The notes under the pieces were generated by a model that did not search any database, was not told the origin of the DNA, and saw only the letters and a list, made by a program, of their open reading frames with translations. Positions 1 to 11,330 of a stretch of 11,330 bases of DNA are shown here, piece by piece. Position numbers and translations under genes: made by a program. The stretch comes from a virus. Its lineage: Duplodnaviria; Heunggongvirae; Uroviricota; Caudoviricetes. Every line of letters begins with the position of its first letter. The first letter of the stretch is position 1. The stretch lies in the IMG/VR virus record IMGVR_UViG_2548876932_000004; one strand, written 5' to 3'.

Positions 1-54
1 CTGGCAGCCTGAGTTCACAGATAAAACACTCTCCAGGATTCCCGGGGCGGTTCA
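1..54 (+). mobile_element. Right terminus of an IS629-like (IS3 family) insertion sequence; element body lies upstream of the window
   Basis: Positions 29..54 read ...CTCTCCAGGATTCCCGGGGCGGTTCA, whose reverse complement TGAACCGCCCCGGGAATCCTGGAGAG matches the terminal inverted repeat I recall for IS629/IS1203 (TG...CA ends typical of IS3 family). Positions 1..12 (CTG GCA GCC TGA) fit the end of a transposase orfB (...L A A stop). Identification is from memory, not a search. Confidence 0.75.
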
Positions 55-258
55 GTCAGACGGGAGTTTGCCATCTGGGCAAAAGCGGTCGTGCAGGTGC
101 TGGAGACATTACCGGATATTCTGGAACGTGACTGCGGCCTGCAGCCTGCCGCTGTGAGCCGTGTTCAGTCCATTATTGATGATCTGCGCGATCAGATAGC
201 CCTGCGGGTGACCGAAGCAGGTGCGGATGATGAGGAGGAATTACAGCAGGAGGAGTAA
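55..258 (+). pseudogene. 3' fragment of terminase small subunit gene, 5' part removed by the IS insertion
   Basis: Open frame with no stops from 55 to TAA at 256..258 (67 codons, acidic C-terminus ...EAGADDEEELQQEE), with no start codon of its own after the IS boundary. Its stop overlaps the large terminase ATG (TAATG), the usual small/large terminase coupling arrangement. Confidence 0.6.
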
Positions 259-2360
259 TGCTGAATCAGGAAACCGCAAAGGCAGCACGAACCGATTCAG
301 GTTATATCCTTCGCGCACCGAGACGAATGCGGGTTGCTGATGCCGTTGCTCAGTATATGCGGGTGCCCATGGGGGCCGGGAACTCAGTCCCGTGGGATCC
401 GCTGGTGGCACCGTATGTTATTGAGCCGATGAACTGCCTGGCCTCGCGTGAATACGACGCAGTGATATTTGTTGGCCCGGCACGAACTGGCAAGACTATC
501 GGCCTGATTGACGGCTGGGTGATTTACAACGTGATTTGCGATCCTGCTGATATGCTGATCATTCAGATGACGGAGGAAAAAGCCCGCGAACACTCCAAAA
601 AACGACTTGCCAGAACGTTTCGCGTCAGCCCGGAAGTGGTCAGTCGCCTGAGTCCGAACAAAAATGACAACAACGTTTATGACAGAACATTCCTTGCTGG
701 CAACTACCTGAAAATCGGCTGGCCGTCAGTCAATATCATGTCCTCATCAGATTATAAATGCGTGGCGCTGACGGATTATGACCGTTTTCCGGAAGATATT
801 GATGGCGAGGGGGATGCCTTCTCTCTTGCCTCAAAACGTACCACCACATTTATGTCCAGTGGTATGACGCTGGTGGAGAGTTCCCCCGGCAGGGATGTGA
901 AGGATGTGAAATGGCGACGGACTTCACCGCATGAGGCTCCACCAACCACGGGGATACTGTCGCTCTATAACCGTGGCGATCGCCGTCGCTGGTACTGGCC
1001 CTGTCCACACTGTGGTGAGTATTTTCAGCCCTGCGGCGATGTGGTTGCTGGTTTCCGTGATATTGCCGATCCCGTGCTGGCAAGTGAGGCGGCTTATATT
1101 CAGTGTCCTTCCTGTTCAGGACGGATTATGCCTGAACAAAAACGTGAGCTGAACGGACGTGGGGTCTGGTTGCGGGATGGTGAATCCATCAATGCGGATG
1201 GCAGTCGTTATGGTGATCCCCGACGCTCACGTATTGCGTCATTCTGGATGGAGGGTCCGGCAGCTGCTTACCAGACACTCTCGCAACTCGTTTACAAACT
1301 GCTTGCTGCAGAACAGGAATACGAGACAACCGGAAGTGAAGAAACACTCAAGACGGTTATCAATACCGACTGGGGATTACCTTATCTTCCCCGTGCCAGC
1401 ATGGAGCAACGAAAAAGTGAACTGCTTGAGCAGCGGGCAGAGCCAGTTCCTTCCCGCAGTGTGCCGGATGGCGTTAATTTCCTGGTGGCGACAGTTGATG
1501 TGCAGGCGGGACGTCATCGCCGTTTTGTGGTTCAGGTAACGGGCTATGGCAGCCGTGGCGAACGCTGGATTATTGATCGTTACAACATCACGCAGTCATT
1601 GCGCGGTGACAGCGACGGGGAGAGCCAGCGAATTGATCCGGCCAGCTATCCGGAAGACTGGGATGTCCTGCTGACGGATGTTTTTCATAAAAGCTGGCCG
1701 CTGGCCTCCGATCCTTCTCAACAAATGCGACTGATGGCAATGGCGGTGGACTCCGGCGGTGAAGACGGAGTCACTGATAATGCCTATAAATTCTGGCGTC
1801 GTTGCCGTCGTGATGGCCTTGGTAAACGTATTTACCTGTTTAAGGGCGACAGCATCCGGCGCGCAAAACTGATCACCCGTACATTCCCTGATAACACCGG
1901 ACGAACGGGCCGACGGGCGCAGGCCGCAGGTGATGTACCGCTCTGGCTTCTTCAGACGGATGCCCTGAAAGACCGGGTGAATAACGCGTTATGGCGTGAC
2001 TCGCCAGGTCCCGGCTATGTGCATTTCCCTGACTGGCTGGGGAGCTGGTTTTACGACGAACTGACGTATGAAGAGCGGAGCAGTGACGGGAAATGGAGTA
2101 AGCCGGGTCGCGGTGCCAACGAAGCTTTTGACCTGATGGTGTATGCCGAGGCTCCGGTCATTCTGCATGGATACGAAAAGATCCGCTGGCCGGATGCACC
2201 GGAGTGGGCGAGCCGGGAAACCTGGCTGGAGTGTGTCCCGGACAGTACCGAACCGTCACCCACACCGGAACCGGTATCCACGCCTGTTAAAAAACAAAAA
2301 CGGAAGAAAACAGTAACTGACGATGTTAACCCCTGGCTGACTTCCGGAGGATGGTTATGA
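258..2360 (+). CDS. A: Terminase large subunit, lambda gpA family
   Basis: 700 aa ORF. Walker A P-loop VGPARTGKT near the N-terminus. CPHCGEYF...CPSC motif resembles the lambda gpA ACPHCGEE...CEHNAC region. FDLMVYAEA resembles gpA ALDCFVYALAA. Sits directly upstream of W-like and portal genes. Confidence 0.93.
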   Translation: MLNQETAKAARTDSGYILRAPRRMRVADAVAQYMRVPMGAGNSVPWDPLVAPYVIEPMNCLASREYDAVIFVGPARTGKTIGLIDGWVIYNVICDPADMLIIQMTEEKAREHSKKRLARTFRVSPEVVSRLSPNKNDNNVYDRTFLAGNYLKIGWPSVNIMSSSDYKCVALTDYDRFPEDIDGEGDAFSLASKRTTTFMSSGMTLVESSPGRDVKDVKWRRTSPHEAPPTTGILSLYNRGDRRRWYWPCPHCGEYFQPCGDVVAGFRDIADPVLASEAAYIQCPSCSGRIMPEQKRELNGRGVWLRDGESINADGSRYGDPRRSRIASFWMEGPAAAYQTLSQLVYKLLAAEQEYETTGSEETLKTVINTDWGLPYLPRASMEQRKSELLEQRAEPVPSRSVPDGVNFLVATVDVQAGRHRRFVVQVTGYGSRGERWIIDRYNITQSLRGDSDGESQRIDPASYPEDWDVLLTDVFHKSWPLASDPSQQMRLMAMAVDSGGEDGVTDNAYKFWRRCRRDGLGKRIYLFKGDSIRRAKLITRTFPDNTGRTGRRAQAAGDVPLWLLQTDALKDRVNNALWRDSPGPGYVHFPDWLGSWFYDELTYEERSSDGKWSKPGRGANEAFDLMVYAEAPVILHGYEKIRWPDAPEWASRETWLECVPDSTEPSPTPEPVSTPVKKQKRKKTVTDDVNPWLTSGGWL

Positions 2361-2569
2361 ACCAGAATGATATCGAAGCCATGATTCAGCGTTATACGGA
2401 AGCTGAAATGGCGGTGCTGGACGGAAAATCCGTCACCTTTAATGGTCAGCAGATGACCATGGAAAACTTATCTGAGATCCGGCAGGGACGGCAGGAGTGG
2501 GAGCGCCGCCTTGCGGCTCTGATTACACGACGACGGGGGCATCCCGGGTACCGGCTTGCGAGGTTCTGA
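2357..2569 (+). CDS. W: gpW-like head-tail joining / head completion protein
   Basis: About 70 aa. C-terminal ...RRRGHPGY resembles lambda gpW ...QRRRGPAGFYV. The ATG at 2357 has a GGAGG 6 nt upstream; the alternative ATG at 2351 has zero spacing. Overlaps the terminase stop (ATGA) and the portal start (TGATG at 2567..2571). Confidence 0.7.
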   Translation: MNQNDIEAMIQRYTEAEMAVLDGKSVTFNGQQMTMENLSEIRQGRQEWERRLAALITRRRGHPGYRLARF

Positions 2570-4077
2570 TGGCAATTCTTGATGATGTGATTGGCGTTTT
2601 TTCACCAGGATGGAAAGCGGCAAGGCTGCGTTCCCGTGCGGTGATCCAGGCTTATGAGGCCGTAAAAACGACGCGGACACACAAAGCCCGGCGGGAAAAC
2701 CGAACTGCCGACCAGTTAAGCCAGTACGGGGCCGTGTCGTTACGTGAGCAGGCCCGTTACCTTGATAACAACCACGATCTGGTCATTGGTGTATTTGACA
2801 AGCTGGAAGAACGGGTGGTGGGGAAAAACGGGATTATTGTCGAGCCACATCCGGTATTACGCAATGGGGCCATTGCCCGTGATCTGGCAGCGGAGATACG
2901 CACCCGATGGAGTGAATGGTCTGTCAGTCCGGAAGTCACCGGGCAGTTTACCCGTCCGATGCTGGAACGTCTGATGTTGCGTACCTGGCTGCGCGATGGT
3001 GAGGTGTTTGCCCAGATGGTTTCCGGGCGCATAAACAGCCTGACGCCTTCTGCCGGTGTTCATTTCTGGCTGGAGGCGCTCGAGCCGGACTTTATTCCCA
3101 TGACCAGTGATGAGAGCAACAGGCTGAATCAGGGCGTGTTTGTTGATGACTGGGGGCGTCCCGAAAAATATCTGGTGTATAAAAGCCGTCCCGTATCCGG
3201 ACGGCAGATGGAAACCAAAGAAGTGGATGCAGAGCGAATGCTGCATCTTAAATTTGTTCGCCGTCTGCACCAGATGCGCGGGACGTCTTTGTTGTCCGGT
3301 GTGCTGATCCGCCTCAGTGCCCTGAAAGAGTATGAAGATTCTGAGCTGACTGCAGCAAGGATCGCCGCTGCTCTGGGGATGTACATCCGGAAAGGCGACG
3401 GGCAGAGCTATGAACCGGATGGTAATGGCAGCAAGGATAAGGAACGCGAGCTTACCATTCAGCCAGGCATTATTTACGACGATCTGAAACCCGGCGAAGA
3501 AATCGGAATGGTGAAGTCGGATCGCCCCAATCCTAATCTTGAAACTTTTCGTAATGGTCAGTTGCGTGCCGTGGCGGCGGGCAGTCGTCTGAGTTTTTCC
3601 AGTACAGCGCGCAACTATAACGGCACTTACAGCGCCCAGCGTCAGGAGCTGGTTGAATCCACTGATGGCTACCTGATCCTGCAGGACTGGTTTATTGGTG
3701 CCGTCACCCGCCCGATGTATCGTGCCTGGCTGAAACAGGCTGTGGCATCCGGTGTTATCAGGCTACCCCGCGATCTTGATCGTTCTTCACTGTATACCGC
3801 GGTGTATTCCGGACCGGTGATGCCGTGGATTGACCCTGTTAAGGAGGCTGAGGCCTGGAAAATTCAGATTCGTGGTGGAGCGGCGACAGAATCAGACTGG
3901 GTACGTGCAGGTGGTCGTAATCCGGATGATGTCAAACGTCGGCGCAAGGCCGAAATTGATGAAAACCGCAAGCTGGATCTGGTATTTGATACCGATCCGG
4001 CCAGTGATAAAGGAGGCAGCAGTGCCGCAACGAAACGACAGGAGCCGCAGCACACCGACGACCAGTCCGAAGAATAA
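2569..4077 (+). CDS. Portal protein
   Basis: About 502 aa from the ATG at 2569 (MAILDDVIGVF...), overlapping the W-like stop. Size and position between terminase/W and the head protease are canonical. The track ORF begins at a GTG at 2497 inside the W-like gene, which I consider a less likely start. Confidence 0.88.
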   Translation: MAILDDVIGVFSPGWKAARLRSRAVIQAYEAVKTTRTHKARRENRTADQLSQYGAVSLREQARYLDNNHDLVIGVFDKLEERVVGKNGIIVEPHPVLRNGAIARDLAAEIRTRWSEWSVSPEVTGQFTRPMLERLMLRTWLRDGEVFAQMVSGRINSLTPSAGVHFWLEALEPDFIPMTSDESNRLNQGVFVDDWGRPEKYLVYKSRPVSGRQMETKEVDAERMLHLKFVRRLHQMRGTSLLSGVLIRLSALKEYEDSELTAARIAAALGMYIRKGDGQSYEPDGNGSKDKERELTIQPGIIYDDLKPGEEIGMVKSDRPNPNLETFRNGQLRAVAAGSRLSFSSTARNYNGTYSAQRQELVESTDGYLILQDWFIGAVTRPMYRAWLKQAVASGVIRLPRDLDRSSLYTAVYSGPVMPWIDPVKEAEAWKIQIRGGAATESDWVRAGGRNPDDVKRRRKAEIDENRKLDLVFDTDPASDKGGSSAATKRQEPQHTDDQSEE

Positions 4078-4090
4078 TTCCTGGTTCAGG

Positions 4091-6049
4091 ATGCAGGCAG
4101 GTCACCAGAGTGACGCGGATATTTATATTTATGACGAGATTGGTTTCTGGGGTGTTACGGCGAAGCAGTTTATCAGTGATCTGAATGCACTGGGCGATAT
4201 CACCCACATTAATCTCCATATTAATTCACCGGGTGGCGATGTCTTTGAAGGCATCGCCATTTTTAATGCACTGAAAACACATGGTGCGTCCATTACCGTT
4301 TATGTCGACGGTGTGGCGGCGTCAATGGCGTCGGTCATTGCGATGGTGGGAAACCCGGTCATTATGCCGGAAAACTCCTTCATGATGATTCATAAACCAT
4401 TTGGCTTTACGGGCGGTGATGCGGAGGACATGCGCACCTATGCCGACCTGCTCGATAAAGTTGAGGCGGTTCTGTTACCCGCTTATGCACAGAAAACCGG
4501 GAAAACCACCGATGAAATTGCTGCCATGCTGGCGGATGAGACCTGGATGTCCGGTGCCGAATGTCTGGCACAGGGATTTGCTGATCAGGTGACACCAGCC
4601 GTTAAGGCAATGGCATGTATTCAGTCAAAACGTACAGAGGAATTTAAAAAGATGCCGGAATCCATTCGAAATATGATTACTCCGCCACGCAACAGTGCTC
4701 CACGCGTACAGGATGATGGACCTGCAGCCTCCCGGACGCCAGTGCAGGCAGCAGCACCCGTGGTGGATGAAAACAGCATCCGTGCGCAGGTCCTGGCAGA
4801 GCAAAAAGCGCGTGTAAACGGTATTAATGATCTGTTTGCCATGTTTGGTGGGCGTTATCAGTCGCTGCAGGCTCAGTGTCTTGCCGATCCTGAATGTTCG
4901 CTGGAGCAGGCCCGCGAAAAGCTGTTGAACGAGATGGGGCGCGAGTCCACGCCATCCAATAAAAATACCCCGGCTCATATTTATGCCGGTAACGGTAATT
5001 TTGTGGGGGACGGGATCCGCCAGGCGCTGATGGCGCGCGCCGGGTTTGAAAAAACCGAACGTGATAATGTCTACAACGGGATGACCCTGCGTGAATATGC
5101 CCGTATGTCACTGACTGAACGTGGTATTGGTGTTTCCAGTTATAACCCGATGCAGATGGTCGGTGCGGCGTTCACACACAGTACGTCTGACTTCGGTAAT
5201 ATTCTGCTGGATGTTGCGAACAAAGCCATTCTGCAGGGCTGGGAAGATGCCCCTGAAACCTATGAACAGTGGACGCGGAAAGGTCAGTTGTCTGATTTTA
5301 AAATTGCCCATCGTGTGGGTATGGGGGGCTTCAGTGCTCTGCGTCAGGTGCGTGAAGGGGCAGAATATAAATACGTCACCACCGGAGATAAACAGGCCAC
5401 TATTGCACTGGCGACCTATGGCGAGCTGTTCAGTATCACCCGTCAGGCCATTATCAATGATGATCTGAATATGCTGACCGATGTCCCGATGAAGCTGGGC
5501 CGTGCGGCGAAATCCACTATTGCCGATCTGGTTTATGCCATTCTGACGTCTAACCCGAAAATCTCCACAGATAATGTAAGTCTGTTCGATAAAGCGAAAC
5601 ATGCAAACGTACTGGAGAGCGCGGCAATGGACGTGGCATCGCTGGATAAAGCCCGCCAGTTGATGCGCGTTCAGAAAGAGGGTGAGCGTCATCTGAATAT
5701 TCGTCCTGCGTTCGTACTGGTACCGACGGCGATGGAGTCTGTTGCTAACCAGGTCATTCGCTCCTCAAGTGTCAAGGGGGCTGACATTAACGCCGGTATT
5801 ATTAACCCGGTGAAAGATTTTGCGACCGTTATTGCAGAGCCTCGTCTTGATGATAACAGCCAGACCACCTTCTACCTGGCTGCGTCCAAAGGCTCCGATA
5901 CGATTGAAGTGGCTTATCTCAACGGTGTGGATACGCCATATATTGATCAGATGGAGGGCTTCAGTGTGGATGGCGTGACAACGAAAGTACGTATTGACGC
6001 TGGTGTTGCGCCAGTTGATCACCGCGGCCTAGTGAAATGTACGGCGTAA
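4091..6049 (+). CDS. Head maturation protease (ClpP-like, S14) - scaffold-like linker - major capsid protein (HK97 fold) encoded as one continuous ORF
   Basis: 652 codons with no internal stop. The N-terminal ~190 aa has a ClpP-like layout (IYIYDEIG..., INSPGGDVFEGIAIFNAL, candidate catalytic Ser in GVAASMASV, His in MMIHKP). The middle ~120 aa is Pro/Ala-rich then helical (ENSIRAQVLAEQKARVNGINDLF...). The C-terminal ~340 aa has the length and character of an HK97-type major capsid protein. Start is placed at ATG 4091, 13 nt after the portal stop; the track ORF start at 3830 is a TTG whose upstream extension overlaps the portal and looks non-protein-like. Confidence 0.88.
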   Translation: MQAGHQSDADIYIYDEIGFWGVTAKQFISDLNALGDITHINLHINSPGGDVFEGIAIFNALKTHGASITVYVDGVAASMASVIAMVGNPVIMPENSFMMIHKPFGFTGGDAEDMRTYADLLDKVEAVLLPAYAQKTGKTTDEIAAMLADETWMSGAECLAQGFADQVTPAVKAMACIQSKRTEEFKKMPESIRNMITPPRNSAPRVQDDGPAASRTPVQAAAPVVDENSIRAQVLAEQKARVNGINDLFAMFGGRYQSLQAQCLADPECSLEQAREKLLNEMGRESTPSNKNTPAHIYAGNGNFVGDGIRQALMARAGFEKTERDNVYNGMTLREYARMSLTERGIGVSSYNPMQMVGAAFTHSTSDFGNILLDVANKAILQGWEDAPETYEQWTRKGQLSDFKIAHRVGMGGFSALRQVREGAEYKYVTTGDKQATIALATYGELFSITRQAIINDDLNMLTDVPMKLGRAAKSTIADLVYAILTSNPKISTDNVSLFDKAKHANVLESAAMDVASLDKARQLMRVQKEGERHLNIRPAFVLVPTAMESVANQVIRSSSVKGADINAGIINPVKDFATVIAEPRLDDNSQTTFYLAASKGSDTIEVAYLNGVDTPYIDQMEGFSVDGVTTKVRIDAGVAPVDHRGLVKCTA

Positions 6050-6072
6050 ACGTCGCAGACAACAACTCTGAT

Positions 6073-6092
6073 GGCCCGTAAGGGCTTTTTTT
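6073..6092 (+). terminator. Putative rho-independent terminator after the capsid gene
   Basis: GCCC-GTAA-GGGC (short GC stem with a GNRA-type tetraloop) at 6074..6085, followed by 7 T at 6086..6092, 24 nt after the capsid stop codon. Confidence 0.55.
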
Positions 6093-6135
6093 GTACCTGA
6101 AATCAGCCCCTGAACGGGGCTGTGCGGAGACAGTT

Positions 6136-6459
6136 ATGGCAAAGAATTTTGTAGAAGAAGGAAAAACGGTGGCGATTGTTGCCAGTGCAGCCATCAGCAG
6201 CGGAGATCTGGTGCAGGTGGGTGATGTTTTTGCGGTGGCGCTGACCGATATTCCACAGGGAGAAACAGGCGACGGCATAACCGAAGGTGTGTTTATGCTG
6301 CCTAAGCTGAAAACGGATGACATGAAAACGGGTAAGAAGGTTTATATGAAGTCAGGAAAAGTTCAGCTGACTAACAGCGGCTCTGATCCGCTGGTCGGGG
6401 TTGTCTGGGCAGATGCCGGAACCAGTGCAGAAGAAGTGCCGGTAAAACTCAATGTCTGA
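6136..6459 (+). CDS. Small conserved phage head-region protein of unknown function (possibly DUF2190-like)
   Basis: 107 aa from ATG 6136 with GGAGA 5 nt upstream (the track ORF starts at an upstream TTG). Gly/Val-rich, beta-like composition. Sits immediately after the capsid gene. No similarity to lambda gpD or gpFI that I can see. Confidence 0.7.
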   Translation: MAKNFVEEGKTVAIVASAAISSGDLVQVGDVFAVALTDIPQGETGDGITEGVFMLPKLKTDDMKTGKKVYMKSGKVQLTNSGSDPLVGVVWADAGTSAEEVPVKLNV

Positions 6460-6727
6460 TCCCTTTTCCCGGCTGGCAGCGCGTATGGATGCGATCACGG
6501 TCAGAAAGATGGGAAAGACAGCCTCGATTAATGATGTCGATATGACTGTGATCCCGGGAGAAACACTGGCAGAGCTGAATGCTCTGTCCGGACCTGCGGT
6601 CTCTCTGGTGGTGTTTTCTTCGGGATACCGCCCACGGCGCGGGGATCGCGTTGTTTATGACGGACAACAATGGACGGTCACACGGCATGAACGCTTTAAC
6701 GGTAAGCCAATGATCTTTATTGAGTAA
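6452..6727 (+). CDS. Head-tail joining / head completion protein, gpFII-like
   Basis: 91 aa. Overlaps the upstream gene by 8 nt. The motif pattern ...RKMGKTASI...SLVVF...RRGD...W.V.R resembles lambda gpFII (...RGYMGTSATI...SLFV...RRGD...FWVDR). Confidence 0.7.
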   Translation: MSDPFSRLAARMDAITVRKMGKTASINDVDMTVIPGETLAELNALSGPAVSLVVFSSGYRPRRGDRVVYDGQQWTVTRHERFNGKPMIFIE

Positions 6728-6738
6728 AGAGGTGTGGG

Positions 6739-7317
6739 ATGAAGGGGCTTGAGAATGCCATCCGCAATCTGAACAGCCTTGATACCCGTATGGTGCCACA
6801 GGCCAGCGCATGGGCGATAAACCGTGTGGCACAGAAAGCGGTCTCGGTTGCCACCCGGCAGGTTGCCGGGAATACCGTTGCGGGAGATAACCAGGTGAAA
6901 GGGATCCCCCTGAAACTGGTACGTCAGCGTGTCCGGGTGTTTAAAGCCAGTCCGTCAGGAAAAATGACGGCCAGGATCCGCGTTAACCGAGGCAATCTGC
7001 CCGCCATTAAGCTGGGGACAGCCCGGGTCAGACTGGCCCGGCGTGGTGGAAAACTGCAGTACCGTGGCAGTGTGCTGAAGGTGGGTAAATATCTTTTCCG
7101 GGATGCGTTTATTCAGCAACTGGCGAATGGTCGCTGGCATGTGATGCGACGTATTGATGGCAAAAATCGTTACCCCATTGATGTGGTGAAAATCCCGCTG
7201 TCCGGACCGCTGACACAGGCATTTGAAGATGCCCGCGACCACATCATTGCTGCGGAAATGCCGAAACAGCTGGGGTATGCACTGAAACAACAACTGAGGT
7301 TATGGCTGACCCGATGA
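6739..7317 (+). CDS. Tail completion protein, lambda gpZ-like (by position and size)
   Basis: 192 aa, the same length as lambda gpZ. Good RBS AAAGAGG 6 nt upstream of the ATG. Located directly before the U homolog. Confidence 0.75.
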   Translation: MKGLENAIRNLNSLDTRMVPQASAWAINRVAQKAVSVATRQVAGNTVAGDNQVKGIPLKLVRQRVRVFKASPSGKMTARIRVNRGNLPAIKLGTARVRLARRGGKLQYRGSVLKVGKYLFRDAFIQQLANGRWHVMRRIDGKNRYPIDVVKIPLSGPLTQAFEDARDHIIAAEMPKQLGYALKQQLRLWLTR

Positions 7318-7715
7318 ACCGACATACACAAATCCGCCAGGCCGTACTGGCACGCCTTCGGGAACAGTGTGGAGACAGCGCCACGTTTTTTGACGGGCTT
7401 CCGGCATTTATTGATGCGCAGGAACTGCCTGCCGTGGCGGTGTGGCTGAGTGATGCTCAGTACACCGGAAAAATGACGGATGAAGATGACTGGCAGGCTG
7501 TTCTGCATATTGCCGTCTTCATCCGGGCACAGGCACCGGATTCAGAGCTGGATATGTGGATGGAGAGCACCATTTTCCCTGCCCTGAATGATGTACCGGC
7601 ACTTTCCGGACTCATCGACATCCTGATCCCACTCGGTTTTAACTATCAACGTGATAATGAGATGGCCACCTGGGCGATGGCGGAAATCACGTACCAGATC
7701 ACGTACACGAATTAA
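7314..7715 (+). CDS. U: Tail terminator protein, lambda gpU homolog
   Basis: Clear similarity to lambda gpU as I recall it: ATFFDG.PA..D....PAVAV.L....YTG...D.D.WQA.LHI.VF..AQ.PDSELD.WMES.I.P...D.PALS.LI; the C-terminal ITYQITY matches gpU LTYVITY. The ATG at 7314 overlaps the Z-like stop (ATGA); the alternative ATG at 7302 would add 4 aa. Confidence 0.9.
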   Translation: MNRHTQIRQAVLARLREQCGDSATFFDGLPAFIDAQELPAVAVWLSDAQYTGKMTDEDDWQAVLHIAVFIRAQAPDSELDMWMESTIFPALNDVPALSGLIDILIPLGFNYQRDNEMATWAMAEITYQITYTN

Positions 7716-7725
7716 GGAGGTGGTA

Positions 7726-8469
7726 ATGACCACACCAAATCCACTGGCAAAGACGAAAGGTGCGGGGACGACGTTCTGGATGTATACCGGCAACGGCGAT
7801 GCGTTTGCGAACCCTTTGTCGGACACTGACTGGCTGCGTCTTGCGATGGTGAAGGATCTGCAACCTGGCGAAATGACCGCTGATGCAGAAGATGACACTT
7901 ATCTCGATGATGAAGATGCAGACTGGAAAACGACAACCCAGGGGCAGAAATCCGTCGGTGATACTTCGGCGACGCTGGCCTGGCGTCCGGGTGACAGCGG
8001 GCAGAAAAAACTGGTTCAGTTGTTCGACTCCGGTGAAGTCTGCGCGTTTCGTATCAAATATCCCAACGGTACTGTTGATGTTTTCCGTGGCTGGCTGAGT
8101 TCACTGGGTAAAACCATTGCCTCAAAAGACGTGATGACCCGCACAGTGAAAATCAGCGGTGTGGGGCGTCCGTATCTGGCAGAAGAAGGCACTGAAACCG
8201 TGGGCGTTACCGGGCTGACGGTGGCACCGGCATCTGCCAGTGTAAAAGTGGGAGCAACCACCACGCTGACCTTTACAGTAAAACCTGACGGAGCCAGTGA
8301 CAAAGCGATCAGTGTGCATTCGACAGATCCACAGACTGCCACGGTGACCCTGAACGGGCTTGTGGCCACGGTGAAAGGCGTGAAGCAGGGCAGTGTCAGC
8401 ATTGTGGGCATGACTTCTGACGGCGATTTTGTGGCAGTGGCTACGGTGGCTGTCAGCGCCGCAGGTTAA
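7726..8469 (+). CDS. V: Major tail (tube) protein, lambda gpV homolog with C-terminal Ig-like (Big_2-type) domain
   Basis: 247 aa. Strong similarity to lambda gpV throughout (KGAGTT.W.Y.G.GD..ANPLSD.DW.RLA.VKDL.PGE.TA...DD.YLDDEDADW..T.QGQKS.GDTS.TLAW.PG..., PNGTVDVFRGW.SS.GK). The C-terminal ~90 aa (GLTVAPASASVKVG.TTTLTFTV.PDGASDK...) has bacterial Ig-like character. AAGGAGG RBS at 7714..7720. The track ORF start at 7651 is an upstream in-frame extension overlapping U and is rejected. Confidence 0.95.
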   Translation: MTTPNPLAKTKGAGTTFWMYTGNGDAFANPLSDTDWLRLAMVKDLQPGEMTADAEDDTYLDDEDADWKTTTQGQKSVGDTSATLAWRPGDSGQKKLVQLFDSGEVCAFRIKYPNGTVDVFRGWLSSLGKTIASKDVMTRTVKISGVGRPYLAEEGTETVGVTGLTVAPASASVKVGATTTLTFTVKPDGASDKAISVHSTDPQTATVTLNGLVATVKGVKQGSVSIVGMTSDGDFVAVATVAVSAAG

Positions 8470-8489
8470 CAGGACGATACTCATCATTT

Positions 8490-8513
8490 GCCCCGATTAT
8501 CCGGGGCTTTTTT
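8490..8513 (+). terminator. Putative rho-independent terminator between V and G
   Basis: GCCCCG (8490..8495), loop ATTATC, CGGGGC (8502..8507), followed by TTTTTT (8508..8513), 21 nt after the V stop codon. Confidence 0.6.
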
Positions 8514-8526
8514 GCAGGTGGAGAAC

Positions 8527-8916
8527 ATGATGTTTCTGAAACAGGGCACGTTTAATTATGAAAAGCAGTCCGTGGTGCTCAGTGAGCTGTCCGGGCTGCA
8601 GAGAATTGAATATCTGGCGTTTGTTCAGCAGCGAACGGCAAAGTTTGATGCCGAAGAGGGAGAACTGCCGGAGGCTGAACGACAGATTGCTTTTCTGCGG
8701 ATGGGGATGGATATCAATGCCTGGCTGGTTTCCCGCTCACTGTGGAATGCGGATCAGTCTAAGGATGTAGAGACGCTTTGCGCATCCGTTATTACAACAT
8801 GGTCGTATGATGCCCTGGGTGCGGGGGCGGAGATGGTTCTGTCGCTGAGCGGTATGGGGACCATTGATAATGCCGGGGATGATGAGCATGAGGCGCTGAC
8901 GCCGGAAAAGTCCTGA
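8527..8916 (+). CDS. G: Tail assembly chaperone, lambda gpG homolog
   Basis: About 129 aa. (M)MFLKQGTFNYEKQSVVLSELSGLQRIEYLAF... aligns with lambda gpG MFLKTESFEHNGVTVTLSELSALQRIEHLAL... Start is ATG 8527 or 8530, with GGAG at 8520..8523. The track start at 8488 is a TTG inside the terminator. Confidence 0.9.
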   Translation: MMFLKQGTFNYEKQSVVLSELSGLQRIEYLAFVQQRTAKFDAEEGELPEAERQIAFLRMGMDINAWLVSRSLWNADQSKDVETLCASVITTWSYDALGAGAEMVLSLSGMGTIDNAGDDEHEALTPEKS

Positions 8917-9254
8917 CGCGGGAAATGCAGTTTGTCATGCGGCTTGCCCGGGAGTTCCGACGGGCAGACTGGCGGCGGATGCTGTCGGAAATGTCGGCCA
9001 CTGAGCTTGGTGAGTGGGGCGATTATTTCCGGATGCAGAGCTTCAGTGATGTGTGGATGGATGCGCAGTTTGCCTCGCTGAAGGCATTGATCGTGAGAAT
9101 GGTGTCCGGTAGCAGTGATGCTGCGGTGGCTGATTTCAGCCTTTTACCGGAAGAGAACGGGATACCGGAGCGAACGGACGAAGAACTGATGCATCTTGGG
9201 GAAGGTATTTCCGGAGGTGTGCGTTATGGACCAGATAGCCAACCTGGTCATTGA
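8527..9254 (+). CDS. T: Tail assembly chaperone G-T fusion product (gpGT-like), made by -1 frameshift near 8904..8910
   Basis: The downstream ORF (frame 0, open 8892..9254) has no RBS or start of its own positioned for independent translation and lies in the -1 frame relative to G. This is the conserved arrangement in lambda-like tail gene clusters, immediately upstream of the tape measure gene. Product about 242 aa. Confidence 0.7.
8904..8910 (+). promoter_or_regulatory. Candidate -1 programmed ribosomal frameshift slippery site (G GAA AAG) for G-T fusion
   Basis: The T frame is -1 relative to G and is open only from 8892. G stops at 8914..8916. The only A-rich slippery candidate in this 25 nt overlap is GGAAAAG at 8904..8910. 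Confidence 0.6.
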
Positions 9255-11277
9255 TTTGGGGATTGATGCGGCAGAGTTTAAAAATGAAATTCCCCGTATC
9301 AAAAACCTTCTGAATGGTGCAGCCAGCGATGCAGAACGGTCTTCTGCCCGTATGCAGCGTTTTATGGAGCGTCAGACTCAGGCCGCCCGGCAGACAATGC
9401 AGGCGGCTTCTTCGGCTGCAACTGCCGCATCCGTCCATGCGCAGACGGTGGAGAAGAGCGCACAGGCTCATGAACGCATGGCCCGCGAGGTGGAGCAAAC
9501 CCGCCAGCGTATGGAGGCACTGAGCCAGAAAATGCGCGAGGAACAGGCGCAGGCCATGGCTCTGGCGGAGGCTCAGGATAAAGCGGCTGCCGCGTTTTAT
9601 CGTCAGATTGACAGTGTGAAACAGGCCAGTGCGGGGCTGCAGGAATTACAGCGTATTCAGCAGCAGATCCGACAGGCTAGAAACAGTGGCGGGATTGGTC
9701 AGCAGGATTATCTGGCGCTGATTTCTGAGGTTACGGCGAAAACCCGTGTTCTTACGCAGGCTGAGGCAGAGGCTACCCGACAGAAAGTGGCGTTTATCCG
9801 TCAGCTTAAAGAGCAGGCAACCCGCCAGAATCTTTCTTCTTCTGAGTTGCTTCGTGCTAAGGCTGCCCAGCTGGGGGTAAGCAGTGCTGCAGAAGTGTAT
9901 ATCCGCAAAATGGAGCAGGCAGGAAAAGCCACGCATTCGCTGGGTCTGAAAAGTGCAGCGGCCCGCCAGGAGATAGGCGTTCTGATAGGTGAACTGGTTC
10001 GCGGCAATTTAGGTGCGCTGAGGGGATCCGGGATAACGCTGGCTAACCGTGCCGGATGGATAGACACACTGATGTCACCGAAAGGCATGATGCTGGGCGG
10101 GGTTATTGGCGGTATTGCCGCGGCCGTCTATGGTCTGGGTAAAGCCTGGTATGATGGTCAGAAGGAGGGGGAAGAATTTAACCGCCAGTTGTCGCTGACG
10201 GGGCATTATGCCGGAGTCACTGCCGGGCAGCTGTGGACGCTCAGTCGTGCTATTTCCGGGAATGGTATCACGCAACATGCTGCAGCCGGTGCGCTGGCTC
10301 AGGTGGTGGGGAGTGGCGCATTTCGTGGAAACGATATCGGTATGGTGGCGAGAGCTGCCGCACAGATGGAGCGATCGGTTGGCCAGTCGGTCAGCGATAC
10401 CATAAGTCAGTTTAAGCGGCTGAAGGATGATCCTGTAAATGCCGCGAAGGCTCTGGACAATGAGCTGCATTTTCTTACTGCCACTCAGCTTGAGCAGATA
10501 CGTGTCCTTGGGGATCAGGGACGGTCCAGTGATGCTGCACGGATAGCCATGTCTGCACTGGCAGAGGAAACCGGTCGGCGTACTGCGGATATTGATAATA
10601 ACCTCAATGCGCTTGGCAGTACGCTGAAGTATCTGTCTGATTTGTGGAGTCGTTTCTGGGATGCGGCCATGAATATTGGTCGTGAAGACTCGCTGGATGA
10701 ACAGATTGCCGCTTTACAGGAGAAAGTGTCGCGGGCGAAAAGACTCCCCTGGACGGCATCATCTTCTCAGGTTGAATACGATCAGCAGCGTCTTAACGAT
10801 CTTCAGGAGAAAAAACGCCAGAAGGATTTGCAGGATGCAAAAGAGCAGGCAGAGCGGAATTATCAGGAGCAACAGAAACGACGTAATGCTGAAAATGCTG
10901 CACTGAACCGGATGAATGAATCGGAAGCAGCACGACATCAGCGTGAAATTGCGCGTATTAATTCCATGCAGTACGCCGATCAGGCTGTCAGGGATGCAGC
11001 GATACAACGTGAAAATGAACGTTACGAGAAAGCCCTGGCATCCGGTAAGAAAAAAACACGCGAAACCCGTAATGATGAGGCCACCCGGTTATTGCTGCAG
11101 TACAGTCAGCAACAGGCACAGGTGGAAGGACAGATTGCTGCTGCAAGACAGTCAGCAGGCATTGCCACTGAAAAGATGACAGAAGCGCATAAACAGCTTC
11201 TGGCTCTGCAGCAGCGCATCAGCGATCTGGACGGGAAAAAACTGACGACAGATGAAAAGAGTGTGCTGGCCCGTTGA
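9226..11277 (+). pseudogene. H: Tail tape measure protein, lambda gpH homolog, 3'-truncated by an insertion at 11275
   Basis: N-terminus MDQIANLVIDLGIDAAEFK resembles lambda gpH MAEPVGDLVVDLSLDAARF. The central region (...LSLTGHYAGVTAGQLWTLSRA...WSRFWDAAMNIGREDSLDEQI...) aligns with the gpH region (...LVLSGNQAGLTADRMLVLSRA...FKSMWDAVLDIGRPDTAQEM...). GGAGG RBS 8 nt before ATG 9226. The frame stops at TGA 11275..11277 after 683 aa, where the lambda homolog would continue about 350 aa further. The stop codon coincides with the first bases of an IS-like terminus. Confidence 0.85.
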
Positions 11278-11330
11278 GGTAGCCTGAGTTTAACGGACAC
11301 TCCTTCCTGAAATAGAATGGCATCAGAAGG
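11275..11330 (+). mobile_element. Probable left terminus of an IS3-family insertion sequence (possibly IS600-like), continuing beyond the window
   Basis: Abrupt loss of the gpH reading frame at a sequence starting TGAGGTAGCCTGAGTTTAACGGACAC... (TG start typical of IS3-family IRs). About 50 nt of leader ends in AGAAGG at the window edge, consistent with an RBS for a transposase orfA just downstream. The IS600 assignment is a tentative recollection and is not verified. Confidence 0.5.

What the first reader, a model, noticed from the sequence alone, without database searches (positions are those of the whole stretch)
1..54. IS629-like element inserted into the small terminase gene
The window opens inside the right end of an IS3-family element whose terminal 26 bp match the IS629/IS1203 inverted repeat as I recall it. 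The element abuts an open 67-codon C-terminal fragment of the small terminase gene. Without an intact small subunit the prophage cannot recognise and package its own DNA, so this is a defective prophage.
Basis: partly seen in the sequence, partly recalled or inferred. Interest (0 to 1): 0.5.

Follow-up and report, generated by a model that had tools for sequence, protein, structure and literature searches.

The report
IS629 end beside truncated terminase gene
The window opens in the last 54 bases of an IS629-type insertion sequence that cuts a prophage's small terminase gene, and in every identical complete genome about 17 kb of the prophage next to that element is gone, which is an ordinary, well-documented way for prophages of Shiga-toxin E. 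coli to decay.

Summary
Bases 1-54 are the right end of a 1310-bp IS3-family element of the IS629 type, with the transposase stop at 10-12 and a 25-bp terminal repeat at 30-54. Bases 55-258 are the last 67 codons plus stop of a 163-codon small terminase gene (DUF1441, PHROG 141).

The window is a whole draft contig, so nothing lies upstream of it. It also ends in another IS, the left end of IS600 at 11275-11330, inside the tape measure gene.

In the 19 complete genomes that match window bases 1-1500 exactly, the sequence left of the IS is a DUF551 gene near the integrase, not the 5' half of the terminase gene. There is no target duplication (AAA versus GTC). Against an intact prophage at the same yjjG-prfC site, 16,950 bp are missing: repressor, replication, Q antiterminator, lysis genes, the region upstream of terS where cos would lie, and 288 nt of terS.

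A sister strain keeps the same right junction with a deletion 830 bp longer. O157 genomes carry a different IS variant at the same nucleotide with a GTC duplication, and one of them has a rightward deletion.

Best reading: insertion followed by an IS-anchored adjacent deletion. This is a known phenomenon, so interest is low.

The parts
1..54 (+). Right end of a 1310-bp IS629-type IS3-family insertion sequence. It holds the last three sense codons and the stop of the transposase at 1-12, followed by 42 non-coding bases.
   Evidence: Identical to L001 6001-6054, the end of the 1310-bp element at L001 4745-6054. The transposase CDS ends at L001 6012, which is window 12. The full element carries OrfA HTH_Tnp_1, OrfB HTH_21 plus rve and the ALIL frameshift pseudoknot at 120 bits. 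It is 99.2% identical to a Shigella sonnei plasmid copy and about 96% identical to IS1203-labelled copies.
30..54 (+). Right terminal inverted repeat (IRR) of the IS, 25 bp, ending in ...TTCA.
   Evidence: 25 of 25 bases are complementary to the left end TGAACCGCCCCGGGAATCCTGGAGA in the complete genomes. Position 26 mismatches.
55..57 (+). GTC, the target triplet at the IS-terS junction (codon 97, Val, of the small terminase gene).
   Evidence: In strain 7784 (O157-type prophage context) an IS sits at the same nucleotide flanked by GTC on both sides. Removing the IS and one GTC restores the intact 163-codon gene. In the window's lineage the left flank is ...GTAAA, so there is no duplication.
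55..258 (+). 3' fragment of the small terminase gene (terS, DUF1441): codons 97-163 plus stop TAA at 256-258. It has no start codon and no N-terminal half.
   Evidence: Translation matches the intact 163-aa protein of RM12761 from residue 97. Pfam DUF1441 E=1.6e-12, profile positions 94-146. The intact protein hits PHROG 141, terminase small subunit, E=2.7e-77. RefSeq annotates it as partial, missing the N-terminus.
258..2360 (+). Intact large terminase gene (terL, 700 aa). Its start overlaps the terS stop (TAATG).
   Evidence: ORF list. PHROG 15 terminase large subunit, E=0. GpA_ATPase and GpA_nuclease domains. Same length as in the uninterrupted prophages.
11275..11330 (+). Left end of an IS600 (IS3 family) that cuts the tape measure gene (9226-11277). 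The IS end supplies the stop TGA at 11275-11277.
   Evidence: The window is 100% identical to RM9872 up to base 11274 and then diverges. The last 56 bases are a multi-copy element that lies directly upstream of an 'IS600 family transposase' in L012. The full tape measure gene is 3066 nt in RM9872. No complete genome has this junction.

Best explanation
The window is a complete draft contig from an E. coli of the O145:H28 type. It holds the head and tail module of a lambda-like prophage integrated between yjjG and prfC, and it is bounded on both sides by collapsed IS repeats.

At its left end an IS629-type element abuts codon 97 of the small terminase gene. The most likely history has two steps.
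1. The IS inserted into terS at the triplet GTC, making a 3-bp duplication. Other strains still show this state.
2. A deletion anchored at the left end of the IS then removed everything from the 5' half of terS leftward to a DUF551 gene near the integrase, about 17 kb. The IS and its right junction stayed untouched.

Step 2 would be the aberrant one-ended transposase reaction documented for IS3/IS629, which is enhanced by the IEE protein reported for O145:H28.

The result is a fixed, non-inducible prophage remnant of about 29.5 kb. It has no repressor/cro, replication genes, Q antiterminator, lysis genes, the region upstream of terS where cos would lie, or functional small terminase. Its structural genes are largely intact but have no evident promoter.

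Shown: the IS identity, the truncation, the missing 17 kb, the absence of a duplication, and the variable left endpoints against a fixed right endpoint. Inferred: the order of events, the molecular mechanism of the deletion, and that the draft source genome has the same left junction as the complete genomes.
For: IS identity and structure.

Breakpoint and gene fragment.

Left context: DUF551|IS in 19 complete genomes that are 100% identical to window bases 1-1500 (RM9872 was checked through base 11274). Flanks are AAA and GTC, not a duplication.

Intact comparator: strain L1PEag1 has a prophage at the same site with the identical integrase and left-arm proteins and a 99.9% identical right arm. 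The missing block is L007 21946-38895, 16,950 bp, and carries the repressor, cro, replication genes, RusA, Q (ydfT), holin, lysozyme, Rz and the 5' part of terS.

Fixed right junction with variable left endpoint: O145:H28 strain 16003 has the same IS|GTC-terS junction, but its left breakpoint lies 830 bp further left, a 17,780-bp deletion.

The terS junction is a genuine insertion site: four genomes with the O157-type prophage have an IS at the same nucleotide with a GTC duplication and both gene halves. In strain NZRM4169 the same insertion has a 5,251-bp rightward deletion into the capsid gene.

[quoted passage not shown] O145:H28 RM13514, which is identical to window 1-1500, carries iee (PMC5567499). 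IS629 is the most prevalent IS in O145:H28 (PMC3893438).

Other: no promoter-like site at the IS/terS junction. Further defects: tape measure cut by IS600 and minor tail L frameshifted.
Against: - The window's source is a draft assembly whose contig ends inside the IS, so its own left junction was never seen. It carries an IS600 insertion that no complete genome has, so it is not identical to any of them.
- No O145 genome with the simple-insertion intermediate was found. All 20 genomes with the O145-type junction are already deleted.
- The data cannot separate a transposase/IEE one-ended deletion from recombination between two IS copies.
- The true ancestor's deleted content is estimated from a comparator in another strain. 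A second comparator, RM12761, has a different left arm: 93% identity in DUF551 and a CHAT-domain gene in place of two hypothetical genes.
Confidence: 0.75

Rival explanations
1. The deletion arose by RecA-dependent homologous recombination between two directly oriented IS629 copies. One copy was inserted in terS at GTC and a second in the DUF551 gene. The recombination looped out the 17 kb between them and left one hybrid IS with mismatched flanks.
For: This gives the same end product: a single intact IS and no duplication. These genomes hold many copies; the number of matching places hit the 40-per-record cap in several O145 genomes. The related prophage in RM12761 has a further IS629-type copy in its early region, L004 28630-29803. 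PMC8860574 notes that recombination among IS copies probably adds to IS-linked deletions.
Against: None of 5426 complete genomes has an IS at the DUF551 breakpoint with the downstream prophage sequence still attached. The extra copy in RM12761 is inverted and truncated, so it could not produce this deletion. Strain 16003 would need yet another separate insertion and recombination to explain its different left endpoint with the identical right junction. The same applies to NZRM4169 on the other side.
Confidence: 0.2
2. This is the first reader's model: a simple IS insertion into an otherwise complete prophage. The 5' half of terS and a GTC duplication would lie just beyond the IS in the source genome.
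For: This state exists in four genomes with the O157-type prophage, at the same nucleotide. The source is a draft whose contig stops inside the IS, so its left junction is unseen.
Against: All 20 complete genomes with the O145-type right junction are deleted on the left. The 19 that match window bases 1-1500 exactly share the DUF551 junction. The O157 insertions involve a different IS variant, with 54 of 1310 differences, in a different prophage.
Confidence: 0.04
3. The IS first inserted in the DUF551 gene, and a rightward adjacent deletion happened to end at terS nucleotide 288/289.
For: Rightward IS-anchored deletions do occur in this prophage family, as in NZRM4169.
Against: The terS junction coincides to the nucleotide, and in orientation, with a genuine insertion site carrying a GTC duplication in other genomes. 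Strain 16003 shares the terS junction but not the DUF551 junction, so the left end is the variable one.
Confidence: 0.02

Closest known systems
IS629 (IS3 family; first described in Shigella sonnei, from my own knowledge) and its close relative IS1203/IS1203v of E. coli O157/O111
   Same: The element is 1310 bp with TG...CA ends and 25-bp terminal repeats. It has orfA (HTH) and orfB (DDE integrase core) joined by a -1 frameshift with an ALIL pseudoknot. It is 99.2% identical to a S. sonnei plasmid copy and 99.5% identical over 795 bp to a copy on a record where PGAP labels the transposase IS629.
   Different: It is about 4% diverged (54 of 1310 positions) from the O157-type copies that PGAP labels IS1203 and that the O157 literature usually calls IS629. 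This copy has no target-site duplication because one flank was deleted.
IS629/IS3-adjacent genomic deletions in EHEC, including IEE-promoted events (Kusumoto et al. 2011, as cited in PMC9943667; Kanai et al. 2022, PMC8860574)
   Same: The deletion starts exactly at one IS end. The IS and its other junction are retained. There is little or no homology at the endpoint. The size lies within the reported range of a few nucleotides to more than 40 kb. The host lineage is reported to carry iee.
   Different: Nothing mechanistic was tested here, and the involvement of IEE is inferred. In strain 16003 the left flank ends in TGTC, the same four bases that precede the IS in the simple-insertion form. 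That would fit a microhomology-guided event. The window's own lineage shows no such match.
Defective lambdoid prophages of EHEC ('defective prophage pool', Asadulghani et al. 2009, cited in PMC7067040)
   Same: It is a lambdoid prophage disabled by IS insertions and deletions while keeping a largely intact block of structural genes.
   Different: This remnant sits at yjjG-prfC in O145:H28. I found no published description of this particular prophage's deletion. I searched Cooper 2014 (PMC3893438) and Nakamura 2020 (PMC7067040) for the flanking gene names and found nothing.
Small terminase of mEp460 / Gifsy-2-type phages (Pfam DUF1441, PHROG 141)
   Same: The fragment is 99-100% identical to the 3' part of this gene. 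The gene overlaps terL in the usual terS-terL arrangement.
   Different: Only residues 97-163 remain. The N-terminal half, which has a weak helix-turn-helix signal at residues 11-40, is gone.

Membership tests
IS3 family / IS629 | Terminal inverted repeats of about 25 bp with 5'-TG...CA-3' ends | tested here: met
   IRL TGAACCGCCCCGGGAATCCTGGAGA matches the reverse complement of window 30-54 at 25 of 25 positions.
IS3 family / IS629 | Element length of about 1310 bp | tested here: met
   L001 4745-6054 is 1310 bp in genomes identical to the window. Only the last 54 bp lie in the window itself.
IS3 family / IS629 | orfA (HTH) and orfB (DDE/rve) joined by a programmed -1 frameshift | tested here: met
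   Pfam HTH_Tnp_1 in OrfA; HTH_21, rve and rve_3 in OrfB. Rfam ALIL pseudoknot at 120 bits at the overlap. RefSeq annotates a programmed frameshift.
IS3 family / IS629 | High nucleotide identity to the ISfinder reference sequence of IS629 | tested here: inconclusive
   ISfinder is not available here. Proxies: 99.2% identity to a Shigella sonnei plasmid copy; 99.5% over 795 bp to a copy on record NZ_LR883002.1, where PGAP labels the transposase 'IS629 family'; about 96% to copies labelled IS1203. Cooper 2014 names IS629 as the most prevalent IS in O145:H28.
IS3 family / IS629 | 3-4 bp direct duplication of the target flanking the element | tested here: not met
   The flanks are ...GTAAA and GTC... 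in the 19 identical genomes. This is expected after loss of one flank. Duplications are present at intact sister insertions: GTC in strain 7784 and CTGG in ECP19-198.
   The left neighbour is a DUF551 gene on the opposite strand. The 5' 288 nt of terS are absent from the locus. This could not be checked in the draft source genome itself.
IS-anchored adjacent deletion | One IS junction is conserved while the other flank has variable endpoints among relatives, with the IS intact | tested here: met
   The same right junction goes with two left endpoints 830 bp apart, RM9872-type versus 16003. The mirror case is in NZRM4169.
IS-anchored adjacent deletion | A contiguous block present in an intact relative is missing, starting exactly at the IS end | tested here: met
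   L007 21946-38895, 16,950 bp, is absent. The flanks are 99.4% identical on the left and 99.9% on the right.
IS-anchored adjacent deletion | Dependence on transposase and/or IEE rather than on RecA | not testable with these tools
   Only literature support is available: iee is reported in O145:H28 RM13514 (PMC5567499), and adjacent deletions are reported for IS629.
Phage small terminase (DUF1441 / PHROG 141) | Sequence membership, and position directly upstream of and overlapping terL | tested here: met
   Pfam DUF1441 E=4.6e-44 for the intact protein and 1.6e-12 for the fragment. PHROG 141 E=2.7e-77. The TAATG overlap with terL is at 256-260.
Phage small terminase (DUF1441 / PHROG 141) | Recognition of the phage packaging site and recruitment of terL | not testable with these tools
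   The function is assigned by annotation and gene position only. No experiment was found or run.

The most novel reading that the evidence does not exclude
Codon 97 (GTC) of this small terminase gene may be a true insertion hot spot for IS629-family elements. Two IS variants that differ at 54 of 1310 positions sit at the same nucleotide in the same orientation. They lie in different prophages of two lineages, O145:H28 and an O157 sub-lineage. Each insertion lies on its own lineage's allele, and sister strains still have the empty site. Each has since produced IS-anchored deletions, leftward in O145 and rightward in NZRM4169. Two more IS copies sit within about 430 bp. This would be a recurrent, possibly selected, route for immobilising prophages.
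Probability: 0.5. Interest if true: 0.3.

Novelty: already known. Interest (0 to 1): 0.12.

Why it matters
The practical value is small but real.
- It shows that this contig comes from a fixed prophage remnant, not from an inducible phage. That matters when prophage content is used for typing or risk assessment of Shiga-toxin-producing E. coli.
- The IS|terS junction, and the IS600|tape-measure junction that no complete genome has, are lineage markers that could be used for strain tracking.
- It is also a caution for reading draft assemblies. A contig that starts inside an IS says nothing about what lies beyond it. Here the natural guess, the other half of the gene, is wrong in every complete relative.

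The phenomenon itself, IS629 insertion followed by adjacent deletion in EHEC prophages, is well documented.

Tried and rejected
- IR-like target idea: I tested whether the shared target resembles the IS ends, as is known for some IS3-family members. The best ungapped match was 12 of 25, and 71% of random 83-mers from the intact prophage score at least as high. Rejected.
- Outward promoter: I looked for a promoter at the IS end that could drive terL. No promoter-like site was found in L001 5850-6400.
- Two-copy intermediate: I searched for an IS at the DUF551 breakpoint with the prophage still attached downstream. It occurs in 0 of 5426 genomes. This does not exclude the two-copy model; it only fails to support it.
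- Simple-insertion intermediate in O145: none exists among the complete genomes.
- Ooka et al. 2009, the key catalogue of IS629 polymorphisms, is not held in the library.
- Two literature look-ups failed on term syntax.
- Cooper 2014 and Nakamura 2020 do not mention the yjjG/prfC prophage by those gene names.
- RM12761 was first taken as the undeleted ancestor, but its left arm is a different mosaic (93-98% identity, different cargo genes). I replaced it with L1PEag1 as comparator.

Full report
WHAT THE WINDOW IS
The window is the head and tail module of a lambda-like prophage. Bases 1-1500 are 100% identical to 19 complete E. coli chromosomes, most of them labelled O145 or O145:H28, for example RM9872, RM13514 and RM12581. 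The window matches RM9872 exactly from base 1 to base 11274. A look-up of the truncated tape measure protein showed that the window is the whole of draft contig AIAI01000089.1, assembly GCA_000446195.2, 11,330 bp. Context has to be taken from the complete genomes.

CHECKING THE OBSERVATION
In RM9872 (locus L001, where position 6001 is window base 1) the IS runs from 4745 to 6054. It is 1310 bp long, begins TGAACC and ends GGTTCA. Window 1-54 is its last 54 bases. The transposase CDS ends at window 12, and window 30-54 is a 25-bp terminal repeat that matches the left end perfectly. The 26th position mismatches.

The element has the hallmarks of an IS3-family member.
- OrfA carries HTH_Tnp_1, and OrfB carries HTH_21, rve and rve_3.
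- An ALIL frameshift pseudoknot scores 120 bits against a gathering threshold of 50.
- RefSeq annotates a programmed frameshift.

Uninterrupted relatives all align from base 55: phage mEp460 at 99.1%, APEC O1, S88 and O145:H28 RM12761 at 100%. The empty site is present in 1366 of 5426 genomes.

The intact gene in RM12761 encodes 163 residues. Window 55-255 encodes residues 97-163, which is 67 codons, followed by TAA at 256-258 overlapping the terL start. The intact protein is Pfam DUF1441 (E=4.6e-44) and PHROG 141, 'terminase small subunit' (E=2.7e-77). The observation therefore stands, apart from the repeat being 25 bp rather than 26.

WHICH IS IT IS
ISfinder could not be queried. The element is 99.2% identical to a copy on a Shigella sonnei plasmid and 99.5% identical over 795 bp to a copy on record NZ_LR883002.1, where PGAP labels the transposase 'IS629 family'. 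It is about 96% identical to copies labelled IS1203. Cooper et al. 2014 report IS629 as the most prevalent IS in O145:H28 (PMC3893438). 'IS629-like' is therefore correct. From my own knowledge, IS629 was first described in S. sonnei, and IS1203 is a close relative.

WHAT LIES LEFT OF THE IS
In RM9872 the order is: yjjG, integrase, two hypothetical genes, a DUF551 gene on the opposite strand, the IS, the 3' terS fragment, then terL. The bases touching the IS are ...GTCGGTAAA on the left and GTCAGACGG... on the right, so there is no target duplication.

The right junction occurs in 24 genomes. Twenty have the O145-type IS and four have an IS1203-type element. The DUF551|IS junction occurs in 19 genomes, all within the O145-type set.

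Strain L1PEag1 carries an apparently complete prophage at the same yjjG site. It has the identical integrase and left-arm proteins and a right arm that is 99.9% identical. Mapped onto it, the window's lineage lacks L007 21946-38895, which is 16,950 bp. That block holds yfdP to yfdR, a LexA-family repressor, a cro-like gene, replication genes, RusA, the antiterminator ydfT (Q), holin, lysozyme, Rz, several cold-shock genes, the region upstream of terS where a cos site would lie, and the first 288 nt of terS.

The whole remnant between yjjG and prfC is about 29.5 kb.

EVIDENCE ON HOW IT HAPPENED
1. The terS junction is a genuine insertion site. In strain 7784 and three others an IS sits at the same nucleotide in the same orientation, with both halves of terS and a GTC/GTC duplication. 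Removing the IS and one GTC restores the exact 163-codon gene.
2. The left endpoint varies while the right one is fixed. O145:H28 strain 16003 has the same IS|GTC-terS junction and an IS differing by one base. Its left breakpoint lies 830 bp further left, which removes the DUF551 gene as well, for a total of 17,780 bp.
3. The mirror image exists. Strain NZRM4169 keeps the 5'-terS|IS junction of the O157-type insertion but has lost 5,251 bp to the right, into the capsid gene.
4. No genome has an IS at the DUF551 breakpoint with the prophage still attached, 0 of 5426.
5. The literature documents such events.
   - Chandler et al. summarise the original authors' hypothesis of a 'sloppy' strand transfer by one IS end for such deletions and propose a microhomology-guided strand switch (bioRxiv 10.1101/2023.06.07.543989).
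   - O145:H28 strains, including RM13514, carry iee (PMC5567499).

I therefore favour insertion at GTC followed by a one-sided, IS-anchored deletion. I put about 0.6 on that mechanism and about 0.9 on the structural description. Homologous recombination between two direct IS copies gives the same product and is not excluded (about 0.2).

One detail may bear on mechanism. In 16003 the left flank ends in ...TGTC, the same four bases that precede the IS in the simple-insertion form (...GATGTC). That would fit a microhomology-guided event starting from a simple-insertion ancestor. The window's own lineage shows no such match.

CONSEQUENCES FOR THE PROPHAGE
- The surviving terS fragment lacks a start codon and the N-terminal half, which has a weak helix-turn-helix signal at residues 11-40.
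- The late-gene activator Q, the lysis cassette, the immunity and replication regions, and the region upstream of terS where cos would lie are all gone.
- No promoter-like site lies between the IS and terL.
- In the window the tape measure gene is cut at base 11274 by the left end of an IS600.
- Downstream of the window the minor tail L gene is frameshifted in RM9872 and in 16003.

The other structural genes in the window have the same lengths, and in several cases the same protein accessions, as in the uninterrupted prophages. By inference only, they could still serve as recombination partners for other lambdoid prophages in the same cell.

THE SAME-SITE COINCIDENCE
The O157-type IS differs from the window's IS at 54 of 1310 positions spread along the element. 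It sits in a different prophage with different lysis genes at a different chromosomal place. Most O157 genomes, such as TW14359, have the empty site.

The O145 right flank is 100% identical over 1350 bp to the empty-site allele of sister strain RM12761, but only about 99% identical to the O157 IS-bearing allele. These look like two independent insertions at one nucleotide in one orientation.

Two further IS copies lie nearby: ECP19-198, 45 bp downstream, with a CTGG duplication, and CEC96047, in terL at gene coordinate 716, a third IS variant. The target shows no resemblance to the IS ends. This may be a real hot spot. I record it as the most novel reading, but it remains a modest point.

VERDICT
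The phenomenon is well known in EHEC genomes and the junction is already annotated in RefSeq as a partial gene next to an IS3-family transposase. Interest is low.

Noticed in passing
window 11275-11330: The last 56 bases are the left end of an IS600 (IS3 family) inserted in the tape measure gene. The IS supplies the stop codon at 11275-11277 and truncates the protein to 683 of 1021 residues. No complete E. coli genome (0 of 5426) has this junction. Two Logan read-set assemblies (ERR10936281, SRR21142927) encode the same truncated protein.
   Followed up: yes
whole window (1-11330): The window is an entire draft contig (AIAI01000089.1 of GCA_000446195.2). It is bounded by 54 bp and 56 bp of two different IS elements, the usual signature of a short-read assembly breaking at repeats.
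   Followed up: yes
window 55-57; L005 6742-6744 and 8055-8057: Two IS variants that differ at 54 of 1310 positions occupy the same nucleotide and orientation of terS in O145-type and O157-type prophages, apparently independently. Two more IS copies lie within about 430 bp in other genomes (L009 and L010). This may be an insertion hot spot. It is not explained by similarity of the target to the IS ends.
   Followed up: partly
L008 4056-5365 (strain NZRM4169): The same 5'-terS|IS junction as in the O157-type simple insertion is followed by a 5,251-bp rightward deletion. It removes 3' terS, terL, the portal gene and most of the protease-capsid gene. This is the mirror image of the O145 case.
   Followed up: yes
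L006 18737-18744 (O145:H28 strain 16003): The left flank of the IS ends in TGTC, the same four bases that precede the IS in the simple-insertion form. This is possible microhomology at the deletion endpoint, and it mimics a GTC duplication.
   Followed up: partly
L004 28630-29803 (O145:H28 RM12761): The undeleted sister prophage carries a truncated IS629-type copy lacking the first 136 bp, inverted, in its early region. Its right repeat reads GGGTTTCC where the window's reads GGGAATCC.
   Followed up: no
L011 5327-6026 (RM9872, about 1.3 kb downstream of the window's end); L006 32630-33329: The minor tail protein L gene is annotated as frameshifted in both RM9872 and 16003. This is a further defect of the same prophage.
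   Followed up: no
window 4022-6049: A single 675-residue ORF combines a ClpP-like prohead protease with a major capsid domain (CLP_protease plus Phage_capsid_4). Its start overlaps the end of the portal gene by 56 nt. The arrangement is shared with the related prophages examined here (RM12761, strain 7784).
   Followed up: no
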